A stretch of DNA of 16,076 bases from a virus. Lineage: Duplodnaviria; Heunggongvirae; Uroviricota; Caudoviricetes. The notes under the pieces are model-generated. The model was not told the origin of the DNA. It saw only the letters and a program-made list of their open reading frames with translations, and did no database searches. The position numbers were made by a program, and so were the translations under genes. Below are positions 13,270 through 16,076 of the stretch, piece by piece. Positions within the stretch are counted from its first letter, which is position 1. The number at the start of each line of letters is the position of its first letter. Location of the stretch: the IMG/VR virus record IMGVR_UViG_2690316153_000005; one strand, given 5' to 3'.

Positions 13270-13596
13270 TCAGGGTGCTGAAGGACTAAAGATAAATGTT
13301 TTCTTCACGCCTTTACGCGGCTTGTCCTTCTCAAATCGCCATTTTGCCATCGCCTTTACAACCTGCTCATCAAACAGATGGTGCGGCTCTGAACGGATAA
13401 ACTCAATTCGGGTGACAGTACCATCAGCACCAATATCAAACTTCACATCAACCCGTCCCTTTATATAATTTGCCGCGGCATAGGCCGGATATTGTGGTAA
13501 TGCCTTAACCAACTGTCGAGGCATATCTGTTTTATGTTGCGTACAGCCCATAACCAAAGAAGACAACAAAATAATTAACGGAAGATTTCTTTTCAT
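13270..13596 (-). CDS. Predicted outer-membrane lipoprotein consisting essentially of a TonB C-terminal-domain-like fold (108 aa from the second ATG; 113 aa from the ATG at 13611)
   Basis: N-terminus MKRNLPLIILLSSLVMGC has a basic n-region, hydrophobic core and lipobox-like VMGC with +2 Thr. Residues 40-105 (PAYAAANYIKGRVDVKFDIGADGTVTRIEFIRSEPHHLFDEQVVKAMAKWRFEKDKPRKGVKKTFIF) align by eye with the recalled E. coli TonB C-terminal domain ([59 protein letters not shown]). Flanked by low-GC DNA. Confidence 0.7.
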   Translation of the reverse strand: MKRNLPLIILLSSLVMGCTQHKTDMPRQLVKALPQYPAYAAANYIKGRVDVKFDIGADGTVTRIEFIRSEPHHLFDEQVVKAMAKWRFEKDKPRKGVKKTFIFSPSAP

Positions 13597-13616
13597 TTTT
13601 ATTCCCGGCATAGATA

Positions 13617-13633: not shown

Positions 13634-13940
13634 AACAATGCAGCCCTGTCGGTCATCAATCCTCTGCTTAATGGCAATGACAATTATCCGACTTAAATCA
13701 CAAATCAGACACATGACATAACAGAGTTTGCGAGGTAACACATCGTCCGGTTTCTTCCACCATCGCACCGGACCAGCGACCATGAGGGGACAACGCCGCG
13801 CTCCGTTTACGCGGTAAACCCCGGTGTGTATCGTTTTTGATTATCCCCGCACACTCTCGCAGAGGAGTCTCCCTGTCGGGCTGCGGTCTCTGTTAATGCA
13901 GGAATACGGCGACAATACCGCGCATGGATAATAAGGTCGC

Positions 13941-14165
13941 TCAACACACTGGCTGTAATTCAGCGGATACCATTCGGCATTTATCAGTATTCATCACACA
14001 CTCAACGGTGAATTCTTCATGCGTGGCATTCACTTCATATGTTCGTGAATAACATTCAGTGCATTTACCTCTGAACACCTCTTCAAGCAGAACACGGCCA
14101 TGTTGCAAAACACGGAACGGAATTGTTCCCTGAAAAGGTTTTACCGTTACCTGCAATTTCTTCAT
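13941..14165 (-). CDS. Cys-rich small protein (74 aa), function unknown, translationally coupled to Rz
   Basis: ORF track protein MKKLQVTVKPFQGTIPFRVLQHGRVLLEEVFRGKCTECYSRTYEVNATHEEFTVECVMNTDKCRMVSAELQPVC; contains a CxxC motif and three further Cys. Its ATG overlaps the Rz stop as ATGA (14165..14162). I do not recognise the family. Confidence 0.5.
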   Translation of the reverse strand: MKKLQVTVKPFQGTIPFRVLQHGRVLLEEVFRGKCTECYSRTYEVNATHEEFTVECVMNTDKCRMVSAELQPVC

Positions 14166-14656
14166 ACATCCTCCGGATAATAAAAAGCCTGCTTAGTACA
14201 CTGAGTGCGGATATAGTCCTGTGCCCCTTCCAGTTGCTTCTGCATCGTCATCAGCCGCTCTCTGAGGGTGAAATAATCCCGTGTAACGGTGTCTGCCAGT
14301 TGGGGGCCGGTTGCATTATCCACGCGGGCGGTGCCGGTGGCTTCACGCACGGGACCTGGACAGGTGGCGTTGATCCGCAGGCTGCGGTGACCAGCGGCAA
14401 CGTCAGCGCGAAGAGTTTCATTTTCAGCTCTCGCATCGGCTAATTCCCTCGAGTATCTGGCATCAAGTGCAGCAACATCACGCTGGCGCTGCTGCATATC
14501 AGTAATGGTTGCATTTGCCAGCTCCAGCTCACTGACTTTTTTATCGCGCTGCTCTTTGTAGGTTATGGCGTTATCACGGTAATGATTCAGCCCCAGACTA
14601 AGCGCACCACAGGCCACCAGCAGGGCAATGATGACCACGCACAGTACGCGGTTCAT
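14162..14656 (-). CDS. Rz: Spanin inner-membrane subunit Rz (i-spanin), 164 aa
   Basis: MNRVLCVVIIALLVACGALSLGLNHYRDNAITYKEQRDKKVSELELANATITDMQQRQRDVAALDARYSRELADARAENETLRADVAAGHRSLRINATC... resembles recalled lambda Rz: N-terminal TM segment, NHYRDNAITYK motif, coiled-coil periplasmic domain. Confidence 0.88.
   Translation of the reverse strand: MNRVLCVVIIALLVACGALSLGLNHYRDNAITYKEQRDKKVSELELANATITDMQQRQRDVAALDARYSRELADARAENETLRADVAAGHRSLRINATCPGPVREATGTARVDNATGPQLADTVTRDYFTLRERLMTMQKQLEGAQDYIRTQCTKQAFYYPEDV
14251..14436 (-). CDS. Rz1: Spanin outer-membrane lipoprotein subunit Rz1 (o-spanin), embedded in the +1 frame of Rz
   Basis: MRELKMKLFALTLPLVTAACGSTPPVQVPCVKPPAPPAWIMQPAPNWQTPLHGIISPSESG has lipobox LVTAAC, a proline-rich body and conserved PPAWIMQP / GIISPSE motifs as in lambda Rz1; entirely nested in Rz. 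Confidence 0.85.
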   Translation of the reverse strand: MRELKMKLFALTLPLVTAACGSTPPVQVPCVKPPAPPAWIMQPAPNWQTPLHGIISPSESG

Positions 14657-14657
14657 T

Positions 14658-14795
14658 TCACCACCAGCGTATCTGACCGATGAAATAACCGGAGGCCATA
14701 ATCACAAACACCAGCCAGATAAGAATGAACTTCCAGGTGGATAATTTTTCAGCCATCACTCGAATCTCCCGAATCAGTTTGCTAAAATCAAACAC
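14658..14795 (-). CDS. Unannotated small single-pass membrane peptide (45 aa from GTG at 14795; 32 aa from ATG at 14756) immediately upstream of Rz
   Basis: Hand translation of the minus strand: (V/M)FDFSKLIREIRVMAEKLSTWKFILIWLVFVIMASGYFIGQIRWW. AAGGAGA sits 4 nt upstream of the GTG and GGGAGA 8 nt upstream of the internal ATG. The TGA stop (14660..14658) is 1 nt from the Rz ATG (14656). Below the ORF track size cutoff. Confidence 0.45.
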   Translation of the reverse strand: MFDFSKLIREIRVMAEKLSTWKFILIWLVFVIMASGYFIGQIRWW

Positions 14796-14821
14796 ACTTT
14801 CTCCTTTGACTTTTCCGGAGT

Positions 14822-14866
14822 CAGGAAACACAAAACCCCGCTTGCAGCCAACAAATGGGGGTTTTA
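14822..14866. terminator. Stem-loop AAAACCCC-(17 nt)-GGGGTTTT followed by a T-rich tract; candidate intrinsic terminator or RNA structure between the endolysin and the small ORF
   Basis: Read directly: 14822..14829 aaaacccc pairs with 14848..14855 ggggtttt; it is followed on the plus strand by ttttacttttatt and on the minus strand by gtgtttcc. The loop is unusually large for a canonical terminator. Confidence 0.35.
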
Positions 14867-14954
14867 CTTTTATTCACTTAGTTTTTGTCAGTTCTCAGGA
14901 TTTCGTGTTATCCGTCCGTGTGAGCAAACCGCATTTTTCAGCAAAATATTCTGC

Positions 14955-15488
14955 TTATCTGTCAATTCCCCAGCACGCCAGCGCACTCTCCTGGTCGCGA
15001 CGGGATACCTGACCGTAACAGTTATTTGAGCGAATACGGCAGTCTCTGCCACCGTCCTTAATCCACCAGCGAATCGCCTCACACGCTCCCCTGCGATCAC
15101 CTGCATTAATTCGTCTGTAAAACGTCGACGGGAAACATTTACCGGGACCAATGTTGTACGGACAGAATGACGCGATCCCCGCTTTCTGGGGTTCGGTCAG
15201 TGGCACTTTGATGTTTTTCTCCACCCATGCCAGCGCCTTATCACGTTCAATGGCGTTAACCTGGTCGCATTTCTCCTTCGACAACTTCATGCCCGGGACG
15301 ACAGGTTTACTATCCACCAGAATGGCACCGCGACAGATGGTCCAGATACCCGCGCCATCACGGTATGCCGTGGTGTGGTTACCTTCCTTTTCATCCAGAA
15401 ACTGGTCGAGGATTTCAGGCGCAGGCGCACCTGCGGCAATCAGCGCCAGAACGGCAGCCGACAGGCCGTATCTGATTTTTGCGTTCAT
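14955..15488 (-). CDS. R: SAR endolysin, T4-lysozyme-family (GH24) muramidase, phage-21 R / DLP12 RrrD type, 177 aa
   Basis: MNAKIRYGLSAAVLALIAAGAPAPEILDQFLDEKEGNHTTAYRDGAGIWTICRG... has an N-terminal weakly hydrophobic Gly/Ala-rich signal-anchor-release-like segment and an E-x8-D-x5-T catalytic triad pattern (EGNHTTAYRDGAGIWT). It follows a pinholin-type holin. Confidence 0.85.
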   Translation of the reverse strand: MNAKIRYGLSAAVLALIAAGAPAPEILDQFLDEKEGNHTTAYRDGAGIWTICRGAILVDSKPVVPGMKLSKEKCDQVNAIERDKALAWVEKNIKVPLTEPQKAGIASFCPYNIGPGKCFPSTFYRRINAGDRRGACEAIRWWIKDGGRDCRIRSNNCYGQVSRRDQESALACWGIDR

Positions 15489-15538: not shown

Positions 15539-15886
15539 TCAGGCCAGCGGTGGAGTCTTCAGAGAACCAGTAATTATTCCCGGTAGTTTTCCTCTGTAGG
15601 TTATCAACACATCCTGCGCCTCTAAAATGATGGGCCGCTTTTCCGGCAACGGACCATCCCCTTCACATAACCCGGCAGCAACATCCATGAAAAACTGCTT
15701 CGCCTGCTTTTTCGCCTCAGCTTCGTAAAACTCCAGCGTGGCACCTTCAGTACGGTCAAGACTAATCGCCACATATGGCAACAACAGTGACGGATACCCA
15801 CCAATTTCCAGTGCCACAGTAACAGTAATCTTATCCGGGTAATTATTTATCCCTTTAACAACCAGTTCGTATTTTTTATTCATCAC
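15539..15886 (-). CDS. Conserved prophage protein of unknown function between holin and endolysin (115 aa), probably DUF1327 / YdfR-like
   Basis: MMNKKYELVVKGINNYPDKITVTVALEIGGYPSLLLPYVAISLDRTEGATLEFYEAEAKKQAKQFF...; its ATG overlaps the holin stop region (holin ends 15888). The YdfR-like assignment rests on position between ess and rrr homologues and on recollection, not on an alignment. Confidence 0.55.
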   Translation of the reverse strand: MMNKKYELVVKGINNYPDKITVTVALEIGGYPSLLLPYVAISLDRTEGATLEFYEAEAKKQAKQFFMDVAAGLCEGDGPLPEKRPIILEAQDVLITYRGKLPGIITGSLKTPPLA

Positions 15887-15887
15887 T

Positions 15888-16076
15888 TTACTCTCCCCGC
15901 GCCGCCTTACGCCGGTCCTCTCTGATTTTGAAATACAGGTTAGTCAGATACGTCAGCAGGCCAAACAGCAGACTCCCCAGCACACCTATCGCCACCCACT
16001 GGGACGGAGAGACTTTGTCCAGCAGCTGCAGTAACCAGTATCCCGTCCCCACCGCTGACGTGGTGTATGACACACC
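15888..16076 (-). CDS. S: Class II holin / pinholin of the phage 21 S21 type, N-terminus truncated by the window end
   Basis: ...[60 protein letters not shown] closely resembles recalled S21 (…[51 protein letters not shown]). The ORF continues to the window edge. Confidence 0.85.

What the first reader, a model, noticed from the sequence alone, without database searches (positions are those of the whole stretch)
14657..14954. Unusual ~300 bp spacer between endolysin and Rz with an unannotated small membrane-peptide ORF and a hairpin
In the lysis cassettes I know, R and Rz are adjacent or overlapping; here about 300 bp separates them. The spacer holds a stem-loop (14822..14855) and a small ORF (14658..14795) with a good Shine-Dalgarno sequence, encoding a 32-45 aa peptide with one predicted TM helix and a C-terminal RWW. 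Its stop is 1 nt from the Rz start, suggesting coupling. It could be an additional lysis regulator (antiholin or spanin-modulating peptide), or a type-I-toxin-like small membrane peptide with the hairpin belonging to its regulatory RNA. I do not recognise it as an annotated gene.
Basis: partly seen in the sequence, partly recalled or inferred. Interest (0 to 1): 0.7.

Follow-up and report, generated by a model that had tools for sequence, protein, structure and literature searches.

The report
Small membrane-protein cassette before phage Rz
The gap between the phage lysozyme and Rz genes holds a real 45-residue membrane-protein gene that belongs to a widespread, uncharacterised plug-in cassette of phage late operons, made of a terminator hairpin, a structured leader, a tiny membrane protein and a probable antisense RNA.

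Summary
The R–Rz gap is 298 bp. The ORF 14658..14795 (minus strand) is real, and its stop lies 1 nt before the Rz ATG. The hairpin is at 14832..14865, not 14822..14855.

The ORF is a genuine gene. Across 26 distinct versions, codons 14-45 show pS 0.80 against pN 0.18. Homologues of 44-54 aa occur from Escherichia to Pseudomonas phages. Some records already annotate it as a hypothetical protein, and it matches phrog_6632. Its function is unknown.

It is not specific to lysis. The gene always travels with the same upstream hairpin (P1), a second small hairpin (P2) and a Shine-Dalgarno sequence. This leader also precedes other small one-helix proteins, placed directly before spanin, terminase, portal or tail genes. 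About half of these proteins end in RWW-stop, 1 nt before the next start codon.

Both hairpins show compensatory base changes. A -10 promoter motif sits on the opposite strand at a fixed position, inside codons 3-5 of the ORF. It predicts a ~70-nt antisense RNA that covers the ribosome-binding site and ends at P1.

Best reading: a mobile late-operon cassette resembling a type I toxin-antitoxin. The RNA and any toxicity are inferred, not shown.

The parts
14955..15488 (-). Endolysin R (177 aa, GH24 phage lysozyme). This is the upstream neighbour, not part of the cassette.
   Evidence: PF00959, E = 2.5e-24; annotated 'lysozyme' in RefSeq homologues.
14875..14954 (-). 3' flank of the endolysin. 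It travels with R, not with the cassette. The same stretch precedes the antirepressor-type and family-B-type inserts in O157 Sakai prophages.
   Evidence: Homology to Sakai Sp10 and Sp14 runs up to the point where the hairpin's A-tract begins and then diverges. Partial hits covering query positions 1-175, 1-181 or 1-202 appear in about 1100 E. coli records.
14832..14865 (.). Hairpin P1. It is G+C-rich with an A-tract on one side and a T-tract on the other, so it looks like an intrinsic terminator on both strands. It marks the 5' boundary of the cassette.
   Evidence: Sequence and fold. It is conserved in all distant family members. Across 58 copies, 8 of its 13 modelled pairs show changes on both sides. 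It folds better as sense RNA in 28 of 37 variants. The window's copy is weaker (-12.6 kcal/mol) than typical copies (about -20).
14823..14831 (.). Conserved linker between P2 and P1. It reads GUGUUUCC on the sense RNA, where it is the U-rich terminator tail. It reads GGAAACAC on the opposite strand, where other copies have AGAAACAGAAAA, a run of A-R-N triplets.
   Evidence: Nearly invariant columns in alignment A4.
14808..14822 (.). Small hairpin P2 (GACUUU/GGAGUC on the + strand RNA). It lies immediately upstream of the SD on the sense strand and next to the anti-SD on the antisense strand.
   Evidence: A hairpin at this position is the commonest minimum-energy feature among 36 distinct leaders, with many different stem sequences. 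All 5 modelled pairs show compensatory changes.
14801..14806 (-). Shine-Dalgarno sequence AAGGAG of the 45-codon ORF, 5 nt before the GTG start.
   Evidence: Sequence. A GGAG, GGGAG or AAGGAG motif is conserved at this spacing in homologues.
14658..14795 (-). 45-codon gene with a GTG start, encoding MFDFSKLIREIRVMAEKLSTWKFILIWLVFVIMASGYFIGQIRWW. The protein has a polar N-terminal segment with net positive charge, one transmembrane helix and the C-terminal RWW. The internal ATG at 14754..14756, with GGGAG at 14766..14770, would give a 32-aa form.
   Evidence: dN/dS is 0.09-0.17 in this frame only. For 26 distinct genes, codons 14-45 give pS 0.80 against pN 0.18. A profile search found 40 relatives that also share the N-terminal motif. 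phrog_6632 matches at E = 1e-29.
14780..14788 (+). Predicted extended -10 promoter TGcTAAAAT on the strand opposite the ORF, inside codons 3-6. A weak -35, TCGAAT, lies at 14760..14765.
   Evidence: The motif TANNNT sits at ORF nt 8-13 or 5-10 on the antisense strand in 30 of 32 distinct ORF 5' ends. No sense-strand position reaches 15%. The motif persists across different protein families. The Ser codon is AGC in every family-A and family-C gene listed, which supplies the TG.
14795..14870 (+). Predicted cis-antisense RNA of about 70 nt. Its 5' end is complementary to the start codon and SD, followed by P2, the A-rich linker, the P1 terminator and a U-tail (UUUUACUUUUAUU). This is inferred; no transcript has been observed.
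   Evidence: The geometry follows from the promoter position and the terminator. The covariance model matches window 14780..14874 (+) at 59.5 bits, E = 1e-10.
14657..14666 (-). Exit junction UGG UGG UGA A directly before the Rz AUG. The two Trp codons form a GGUGG SD-like element for the next gene.
   Evidence: 23 of 47 distinct cassette proteins end in RWW with the DNA CGN-TGG-TGG-TGA (or TAG), usually followed after 1-2 nt by an ATG. The next gene starts 1 nt after the stop in 105 of 170 cassette copies. The SD role is an inference.
14162..14656 (-). Rz i-spanin (164 aa) with the Rz1 o-spanin embedded at 14251..14436. This is the downstream neighbour.
   Evidence: PF03245, E = 1e-47; PF06085, E = 1.7e-20.

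Best explanation
The spacer is not a loose intergenic gap. About 210 bp of it (roughly 14657..14870) is a self-contained mobile cassette inserted exactly in front of the Rz start codon. Its parts, in the direction of late transcription:
1. P1, a strong hairpin that looks like an intrinsic terminator on both strands.
2. P2, a short second hairpin.
3. A good Shine-Dalgarno sequence.
4. A GTG-initiated 45-codon gene for a single-pass inner-membrane protein (N-terminus probably in the cytoplasm, C-terminal RWW at the periplasmic face).
5. An exit junction, UGG-UGG-UGA-N-AUG, that hands ribosomes on to the next gene.

On the opposite strand, an extended -10 promoter embedded in codons 3-6 most likely produces a ~70-nt antisense RNA. 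This RNA would be complementary to the start codon, the SD and the leader, and would end at P1.

Proposed working: in the lysogen the peptide is kept off twice. P1 stops stray sense transcription, and the antisense RNA blocks translation initiation. After induction, Q-modified polymerase reads through P1, late mRNA outnumbers the antisense RNA, and the membrane peptide is made together with the lysis and assembly proteins.

In design this matches a type I toxin-antitoxin pair (SymE/SymR-like geometry) or lambda's OOP antisense control.

Shown: the gene is real and under purifying selection; the cassette is modular; both hairpins are conserved with compensatory changes; the antisense -10 motif is conserved.

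Inferred: that the antisense RNA is transcribed; that P1 terminates; the membrane topology; any toxic or lysis-timing activity of the peptide.
For: The gene is real:
- dN/dS is 0.09-0.17 in this frame only among E. coli, E. fergusonii and Salmonella.
- For 26 distinct 45-codon genes, codons 14-45 give pS 0.80 against pN 0.18.
- A profile search of 1.8 billion representative proteins finds 40 relatives of 32-86 aa (mostly 44-54 aa) that share xDFSKLIRELRxMxEKLxxWKFLLIW.

The cassette is modular:
- The homology block among three different lysis cassettes starts at the hairpin and ends at the spanin ATG. Those cassettes combine GH24 or GH19 endolysins with Rz or DUF2514 spanins.
- K-12 DLP12 and Qin lack the block.
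- A scan for the hairpin alone finds the same hairpin and leader in front of other small one-helix ORF families.
- One phage can carry several copies, placed before terminase, portal and other late genes.

The RNA structure is conserved:
- In 58 copies, 96.9% of cells are paired and 13 of 18 pairs show changes on both sides.
- None of 500 shuffles reaches these values, and slid controls are far lower.

An antisense promoter is indicated:
- TANNNT sits on the antisense strand at ORF nt 8-13 or 5-10 in 30 of 32 distinct 5' ends, with nothing comparable on the sense strand.
- The motif persists although the amino acids at those codons differ (D/N/K, F/Y/I/L/S, S/K/T), and also in G+C-rich hosts.
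- The one family member without the hairpin (L099) also lacks the -10 motif.
- Synonymous variation in codons 2-13 is 0.26 against 0.80 downstream.
- The A-tract 5' of P1, which becomes the U-tail of an antisense transcript, is conserved in distant members.

Exit junction.
Against: - No transcript data were available. The Hfq-CRAC catalogue for O157 Sakai lists no peak at the family-B cassette of prophage Sp14. That study's filter (antisense to a CDS, or more than 100 bp from one) would probably have excluded this site anyway.
- The -35 element is weak (3 of 6), and family B lacks the TG extension.
- The variant families share a related N-terminus, so part of the conservation of the -10 motif could come from common ancestry and amino-acid constraint.
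- P1 folds better as sense RNA than as antisense RNA. Its main role may therefore be on the sense transcript.
- No promoter for the peptide's own mRNA was found, unlike classical type I toxins.
- There is no similarity to any known type I toxin family in Pfam or NCBIfam.
- The window's own P1 copy is weakened (-12.6 kcal/mol).
Confidence: 0.55

Rival explanations
1. A plain late-operon moron with no antisense RNA. The cassette is an extra small membrane-protein gene, for example one that excludes superinfecting phage, counters a host defence or tunes the envelope. P1 is only a sense-strand terminator or mRNA-stability hairpin. The -10-like motif is a by-product of a conserved N-terminal peptide motif and A/T-rich early codons.
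For: - P1 is more stable as sense RNA in 28 of 37 variants.
- All variant families share a related N-terminal motif: an aromatic residue, then S/T/K, K, and two hydrophobic residues.
- The -35 is weak and there is no transcript evidence.
- The gene is present in some relatives and absent in others, as for morons.
Against: - The three key -10 bases stay fixed while the encoded residues change.
- The third base of codon 4 is T in every codon type seen (TTT, TAT, ATT, CTT, TCT), including in G+C-rich hosts. Ser is always AGC.
- Synonymous sites of codons 2-13 are three times less variable than later ones.
- The A-tract 5' of P1 is conserved although a one-way terminator does not need it.
- P2 contains many U-G pairs on the antisense strand, which would be A-C mismatches on the sense strand.
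Confidence: 0.25
2. A dedicated lysis accessory. The peptide is an antiholin-like or spanin-modulating factor that tunes lysis timing, and its two in-frame starts give antagonistic long and short forms, as in holin S.
For: - In Escherichia, E. fergusonii and Salmonella the gene lies directly before the i-spanin gene in three unrelated lysis cassettes.
- It has two in-frame starts, each with an SD, and Met14 is nearly invariant.
- Other R-Rz junction variants also place a small one-helix ORF just before Rz: ECs_1966 and ECs_5740.
Against: - Homologues with the same leader lie before the terminase large subunit, portal, DUF4054, DUF2460 and gpK genes, or among ParE, RelB and HicAB modules.
- One phage carries three or four paralogous cassettes spread through the late operon.
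- There is no match to any holin family.
- Closely related cassettes (Qin, DLP12) lack it.
Confidence: 0.13
3. A leader ORF whose translation matters only for coupling ribosomes to Rz, as orf45 does for anrP in the Gifsy-1 isrK locus. The peptide itself would have no function.
For: - The stop is 1 nt before the Rz ATG and the WW codons form a GGUGG element.
- The isrK locus has the same layout: a terminator, a small ORF with two starts, then an overlapping next gene (PMC4825925).
Against: - The amino-acid sequence is under strong purifying selection and the transmembrane helix is conserved across distant hosts. In contrast, the orf45 peptide sequence is reported as variable.
- Some members have no closely following gene (L104, L107).
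- Rfam's IsrK model does not match.
Confidence: 0.05
4. A chance ORF in a non-coding spacer.
For: The ORF is short, starts with GTG and is unannotated in most phage records.
Against: Selection is frame-specific, third-position substitutions dominate, and homologues of conserved length occur across genera.
Confidence: 0.02

Closest known systems
Type I toxin-antitoxin modules with a cis-antisense RNA over the translation start (SymE/SymR; also Ibs/Sib and Hok/Sok)
   Same: A small hydrophobic one-helix protein of under 60 aa. A short antisense RNA of about 70 nt is predicted from a promoter inside the 5' end of the ORF, covering the SD and start codon and ending at an intrinsic terminator. Several paralogous copies occur per genome, and the modules sit on mobile elements.
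   Different: There is no sequence similarity to any known toxin family. No promoter for the peptide's own mRNA was found, and sense expression seems to depend on antiterminated late transcription. A terminator sits upstream of the ORF. Toxicity and the RNA itself are untested.
Morons of lambdoid phages (HK97/HK022 concept of Juhala and Hendrix; recalled from my own knowledge)
   Same: An extra gene inserted precisely between two adjacent late genes. It is present in some relatives and absent in others, and it is exchanged among unrelated phages.
   Different: Classical morons carry their own promoter upstream and a terminator downstream, so they are expressed from the prophage. Here the terminator is upstream, no sense promoter is seen, and the only promoter-like element points the opposite way.
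isrK-orf45-anrP locus of Salmonella prophage Gifsy-1 (PMC4825925)
   Same: An intrinsic terminator is followed by a small ORF of about 45 codons with two in-frame starts. The ORF's stop abuts the start of the next gene (translational coupling), and RNA structure lies around the ribosome-binding site.
   Different: In isrK the regulator is a sense sRNA ending at the terminator, and the orf45 peptide sequence is not conserved. Here the peptide is strongly conserved and membrane-spanning, the regulator is predicted to be antisense, and Rfam's IsrK model does not match.
Lambda OOP antisense RNA
   Same: A short phage antisense RNA with a constitutive promoter and its own intrinsic terminator, opposing a phage mRNA.
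   Different: OOP covers the 3' end of cII and acts through RNase III. This RNA would cover a translation start in the late operon.
PHROG families phrog_6632, 1115, 4493, 12997 and 4906 (all of unknown function)
   Same: The window's peptide is a full-length member of phrog_6632 (E = 1e-29). The other cassette proteins fall in the sister families.
   Different: These families record only protein similarity. The shared RNA leader, the antisense promoter and the exit junction are not part of any description that I found.

Membership tests
Type I toxin-antitoxin system | Small (under about 60 aa) hydrophobic protein with a transmembrane helix | tested here: met
   45 aa. Residues 23-39 have mean Kyte-Doolittle hydropathy 2.5. 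Flanking charges favour the N-terminus inside.
Type I toxin-antitoxin system | An antisense RNA that pairs with the toxin mRNA and blocks its translation | tested here: inconclusive
   A conserved extended -10 on the opposite strand and a two-way terminator predict a ~70-nt RNA over the SD and start codon. No expression data were available, and no Hfq-CRAC peak is listed at the related Sakai cassette.
Type I toxin-antitoxin system | The toxin mRNA has its own promoter | tested here: not met
   No sigma-70-like site on the minus strand between 14796 and 14954. Nothing upstream of P1 is conserved between contexts except the A-tract.
Type I toxin-antitoxin system | Overexpression of the peptide is toxic or depolarises the membrane | not testable with these tools
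   Requires an experiment.
Type I toxin-antitoxin system | Sequence membership in a known toxin family (Hok, Ldr, Ibs, TisB, ShoB, Zor, DinQ and others) | tested here: not met
   No Pfam or NCBIfam match at E <= 0.1.
Moron (lambdoid phage accessory insert) | An extra gene between two genes that are adjacent in related phages | tested here: met
   R and Rz overlap in K-12 DLP12 and Qin. Alternative inserts occupy the same junction in Sakai prophages.
Moron (lambdoid phage accessory insert) | Its own promoter upstream and terminator downstream, giving expression from the prophage | tested here: not met
   The terminator-like hairpin is upstream, there is no sense promoter, and the stop abuts the next gene.
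Holin / antiholin | Membership in a holin family and an obligatory place in the lysis cassette | tested here: not met
   No holin Pfam match. Homologues lie before terminase, portal and tail genes. The window already has an S21-type holin at 15888..16073.
Holin / antiholin | A dual-start motif giving two products | tested here: inconclusive
   GTG1 and ATG14 each have an SD, and Met14 is nearly invariant. Use of both starts was not tested.
IsrK sRNA / orf45 leader | Match to Rfam family IsrK, and a leader peptide whose sequence is not conserved | tested here: not met
   No Rfam match at E <= 1 in the window or in six related loci. The peptide is under purifying selection.
phrog_6632 | Full-length profile match | tested here: met
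   E = 1.2e-29, residues 1-45 against profile positions 1-45 of 45.

The most novel reading that the evidence does not exclude
The window holds one copy of an undescribed class of plug-in cassettes that populate the junctions of phage late operons from enterobacteria to Pseudomonas-type hosts. Each cassette would bring four things:
- an entry terminator;
- a convergent ~70-nt antisense RNA gene whose promoter is written into the first codons of the ORF;
- a small one-helix membrane protein;
- an exit ribosome-binding site encoded by the terminal Trp-Trp codons.

This would be a new family of type I toxin-antitoxin-like modules. They would be silent in lysogens and fire only with Q-antiterminated late transcription. 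Because the antisense RNA could also act on the identical leaders of related phages, it might serve competition between phages.
Probability: 0.35. Interest if true: 0.75.

Novelty: new variant of a known kind. Interest (0 to 1): 0.6.

Why it matters
- About one in six complete E. coli genomes carries this exact element, as do many Shiga-toxin phages including H-19B. Yet it is mostly unannotated and has no known function.
- If the cassette model is right, it adds a new and widespread family of RNA-controlled small membrane proteins to phage biology.
- It would explain how extra genes can be dropped into a late operon without breaking expression of the next essential gene. The cassette brings its own entry terminator, which antiterminated polymerase ignores, and its own exit ribosome-binding site.
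- It gives a compact test case of one DNA stretch serving three purposes at once: the first 13 codons also hold an opposite-strand promoter and an internal ribosome-binding site.
- For Stx phages, any effect on lysis timing would bear on toxin release.

Tried and rejected
- Rfam: scans of the window region and of six related loci gave no match to the hairpin or leader.
- Protein libraries: Pfam, NCBIfam and PADLOC gave no match for the peptide or its sister families.
- A first candidate antisense promoter (+ strand 14673..14702, CTGACC-18-CATAAT) was rejected because it is not conserved in Salmonella or E. fergusonii.
- A sense promoter in the endolysin 3' flank was looked for and not found (and inspection).
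- Known EHEC prophage sRNAs were compared. AgvB, AsxR and EcOnc03 have a different sequence. PasA-D lie between the esterase and holin genes, not here. EcOnc33, which has a ~71-nt Northern band, turned out to lie inside the esterase gene of Sp6. EcOnc10/11/12 lie downstream of Rz.
- The genome-contig scan with Rz returned only 4 loci, so it gave little diversity.
- The MAFFT alignment of the RNA did not align the inner stems, and RNAalifold recovered only the outer 9 pairs. A covariance-model realignment was used instead.
- Literature searches for the protein accession, for ECs2740, for small ORFs in lysis cassettes, for prophage type I TA systems and for late-operon morons found no description of this element. 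Fozo et al. 2010 do not list it.
- Structure prediction was not run. A 45-residue single helix would not discriminate between the hypotheses.
Full report
**Checking the observation**

The window is part of a lambdoid prophage whose late operon runs on the minus strand. It encodes, in order:
- an S21-type holin, 15888..16073;
- a YdfR/DUF1327 protein, 15539..15886;
- a GH24 endolysin, 14955..15488;
- Rz, 14162..14656, with Rz1 embedded at 14251..14436.

The R–Rz gap is 298 nt (14657..14954). It contains the ORF 14658..14795. This ORF has a GTG start with AAGGAG 5 nt upstream, an in-frame ATG at 14754..14756 with its own GGGAG, and a TGA stop 1 nt before the Rz ATG.

The element is common. 871 of 5426 complete E. 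coli genomes carry at least 80% of a 401-nt query across it. So do H-19B, CP-1639, TL-2011c and many Stx1a, Stx2a and Stx2c phages.

It is annotated in some records as 'hypothetical protein' WP_000459345.1 or 'putative bacteriophage protein'. It is a full-length member of phrog_6632. Most phage records leave it blank.

In K-12 DLP12 and Qin, R and Rz overlap with no spacer. The spacer is therefore an insertion.

**Is the ORF a gene?**

Yes. Among the E. coli, E. fergusonii and Salmonella versions (82% and 67% protein identity), dN/dS is 0.09-0.17 in the annotated frame. It is 0.3 to above 3 in the five other frames.

For 26 distinct 45-codon genes (245 pairs more than 8% diverged), codons 14-45 give pS 0.80 against pN 0.18.

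A profile search of 1.8 billion representative proteins found 40 relatives, mostly 44-54 aa. They share xDFSKLIRELRxMxEKLxxWKFLLIW followed by a hydrophobic stretch. The N-terminal 13 residues are included in this motif, so the 45-aa form is a real product.

The protein has:
- a polar N-terminal segment with net positive charge (5 K/R against 3 D/E);
- one hydrophobic helix, residues 23-39;
- a six-residue tail, GQIRWW.

**The ORF is part of a cassette**

The E. fergusonii copy lies between a GH19 endolysin and a DUF2514 spanin. The Salmonella copy lies between a different lysozyme and an Rz. Nucleotide homology between these loci and the window begins at the hairpin's A-tract and ends at the spanin ATG.

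More distant family members are not in lysis cassettes at all. They lie:
- among ParE, RelB/YafQ and HicAB modules upstream of a terminase gene;
- after the tail gene K, next to a Bro-N gene;
- next to PrlF/YhaV.

All but one of them keep the same upstream hairpin, with different inner-stem sequences.

A pattern scan of IMG/VR for the hairpin alone returned 120 loci. In those that carry the A-tract and leader, the hairpin is followed about 25-30 nt later by an SD and a small one-helix ORF. That ORF can belong to other families:
- MRKYKLILLRLTMKNGLE... (60 aa; ECs_2740 in Sakai Sp14);
- MINFSGGDWIV... (53 aa);
- several singletons.

These proteins match phrog_1115, 4493, 12997 and 6632, all of unknown function.

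Of 47 distinct cassette proteins, 23 end in RWW. The junction is typically CGN-TGG-TGG-TGA-N-ATG, and the next gene starts 1 nt after the stop in 105 of 170 copies.

The next gene may be Rz, a DUF2514 spanin, the terminase large subunit, portal, DUF4054, DUF2460 or gpK.

One phage can hold three or four cassettes. In L134 they precede terminase, portal and the following gene. E. fergusonii has two in tandem before its spanin.

At the same R–Rz junction, O157 Sakai prophages carry alternative inserts. Sp6, Sp10 and Sp15 have an antirepressor gene plus a 48-aa one-helix ORF. Sp14 has the family-B cassette plus a 43-aa one-helix ORF. The first ~85 nt after R are shared with the window and belong to the endolysin module.

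**RNA structure**

I built a covariance model from five Salmonella-type copies with a hand-assigned structure of two hairpins, P2 and P1. It matches the window at 14780..14874 (+) with 59.5 bits.

In the model-guided alignment of 58 copies:
- 96.9% of cells form standard pairs;
- 13 of 18 pairs show changes on both sides, including all five P2 pairs;
- none of 500 shuffles reaches these values;
- slid controls drop to 32-67% paired.

This alignment was fitted to the model, which favours the structure. Independent single-sequence folds also give a hairpin at the P2 position as the commonest minimum-energy feature among 36 distinct leaders, with many different stem sequences.

P1 is flanked by an A-tract and a T-tract, so it resembles an intrinsic terminator on both strands. 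It is more stable as sense RNA in 28 of 37 variants (Wilcoxon p = 4e-4). P2 is slightly more stable as antisense RNA.

Rfam 15 has no matching family.

**An opposite-strand promoter inside the ORF**

In every cassette family, the best -10-like hexamer on the antisense strand falls at the same place. TANNNT occupies ORF nt 8-13 in 24 of 32 distinct ORF 5' ends and nt 5-10 in 6 more. The chance expectation per position is 1.6%. No sense-strand position reaches 15%.

In family A the motif is TGcTAAAAT, TAATAT, TAGAAT or TAAGAT, which is an extended -10. In the window it lies at 14780..14788 on the + strand.

The three critical bases are kept although the encoded residues vary:
- codon 3 is D, N, K or E;
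- codon 4 is F, Y, I, L or S, always with T in third position;
- codon 5 is S, K, T or I, with Ser always AGC.

This holds in G+C-rich hosts too. The one relative without the hairpin (L099) also lacks the motif.

Synonymous sites of codons 2-13 vary three times less than later ones (0.26 against 0.80). That is expected if this DNA also encodes a promoter and the internal SD.

A transcript starting about 7 nt downstream, near 14795, would run through:
- the complement of the start codon and SD (CUCCUUU);
- P2;
- a conserved A-rich linker, which in most copies reads AGAAACAGAAAA, a run of A-R-N triplets;
- P1 and a U-rich tail.

That gives an RNA of about 70 nt.

**Mechanism proposed**

The cassette is a plug-in unit for late operons that are read by antiterminated polymerase.

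In the lysogen, P1 blocks stray sense transcription and the antisense RNA occludes the ribosome-binding site. After induction, Q-modified polymerase ignores P1 and the peptide is made with the late proteins. The terminal UGG-UGG-UGA supplies a GGUGG element and a stop next to the following start codon, so the inserted unit does not orphan the downstream gene.

The activity of the peptide is unknown. By analogy with type I toxins it may perturb the inner membrane. Its frequent position before spanin genes leaves a role in lysis timing open, but the non-lysis contexts argue against a dedicated one.

**Limits**

- No transcript or translation data could be consulted.
- The Hfq-CRAC catalogue of O157 Sakai (PMC4104026, Table S2) has no peak at the Sp14 cassette. 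Its filter would exclude a site within 100 bp of coding regions that is not antisense to a CDS.
- The -35 is weak.
- The families share ancestry in their first codons, so the promoter inference rests on the contrast between nucleotide and amino-acid conservation, not on independent origins.
- The window's own P1 carries a change that lowers its stability to -12.6 kcal/mol, against about -20 in most copies.

**Comparison with known systems**

The design is closest to type I toxin-antitoxin pairs with a cis-antisense RNA over the translation start (SymE/SymR geometry) and to lambda OOP. It differs in three ways: it lacks a promoter for the peptide mRNA, it has an upstream terminator, and it belongs to no known toxin family.

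It fits the positional definition of a moron but not the classical arrangement of promoter, gene and terminator.

It resembles the isrK-orf45-anrP locus in layout: a terminator, a small two-start ORF and a coupled next gene (PMC4825925). It differs in having a conserved membrane peptide and in not matching IsrK.

I found no description of the cassette in the searchable literature.

**Verdict**

The finding is real and more interesting than a stray ORF. The gene itself is already recorded as a hypothetical protein, and the functional model remains inferential. I rate it a new variant of a known kind, with interest 0.6.

Noticed in passing
window 13813..13861 (+ strand): This stretch is identical (49 of 49) to the Hfq-CRAC peak EcOnc11 of O157 Sakai prophage Sp10. 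EcOnc10 and EcOnc12 appear to be repeats of it, and it is among the most abundant Hfq-bound orphan RNAs of Tree et al. 2014. It lies just downstream of Rz, antisense to the late operon. The window therefore probably encodes this uncharacterised sRNA.
   Followed up: partly
L012 3676..4140 (E. fergusonii); also L134 2871..7256, L104 2917..5384, L111 3836..6363: Cassettes occur in tandem or several times per phage. E. fergusonii has two between its GH19 endolysin and DUF2514 spanin (the first ORF is MKESSNK...WVKWW, 50 aa). L134 has model hits before terminase, before portal and after portal. L104 has three among toxin-antitoxin modules.
   Followed up: partly
L230 4286..5278 (Sakai Sp10), L231 (Sp15), L232 (Sp6), L233 31700..32215 (Sp14): The R-Rz junction is a hotspot with alternative inserts. 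One type is an antirepressor gene plus a 48-aa one-helix ORF (ECs_1966, ECs_5741, ECs_5713). Another is the family-B cassette ORF ECs_2740 plus a 43-aa one-helix ORF, ECs_5740 (phrog_4906). A small membrane ORF directly before Rz recurs in all of them.
   Followed up: partly
window 14875..14954 and L008 3753..3920: The endolysin 3' flank shares short conserved blocks between E. coli and Salmonella (CTGAAAAATG, and GGATAACA followed shortly by AAATCC) although the endolysins differ. GGAT-N8-ATCC is a small inverted repeat. Its function is unknown, and no promoter was evident.
   Followed up: no
window 14832..14865: The window's copy of hairpin P1 reads CCCCCATTTG where most E. coli copies read CCCCGTTTG. 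This weakens the stem to -12.6 kcal/mol as sense RNA, against about -20 in most copies. This copy may therefore terminate less well.
   Followed up: partly
window 13270..13611 (- strand): A 113-aa ORF carries a TonB C-terminal domain (PF03544, E = 2.7e-15) and a lipoprotein-like N-terminus. It sits between the lysis genes and the terminase small subunit, which is a likely moron position.
   Followed up: no
window 13941..14165 (- strand): A 74-aa ORF directly after Rz matches only positions 100-172 of the 291-position phrog_2571. It looks like a truncated remnant of a larger gene.
   Followed up: no
window 15539..15886 (- strand): A YdfR/DUF1327 gene of unknown function sits between holin and endolysin, as in K-12 Qin. 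It is another uncharacterised member of this lysis cassette.
   Followed up: no
L107 4130..4218 (- strand): Rfam family sRNA-Xcc1 matches above its gathering score (63.3 bits). The match lies next to a Bro-N gene in the insert that also holds a family-A cassette, after the tail gene K.
   Followed up: no
P0025, P0027, P0017: A few database versions of the peptide carry internal frameshift pairs, a C-terminal frameshift or loss of the stop codon. Many gene callers also extend the N-terminus across the hairpin, giving 65-86 aa products that are probably artefacts.
   Followed up: no
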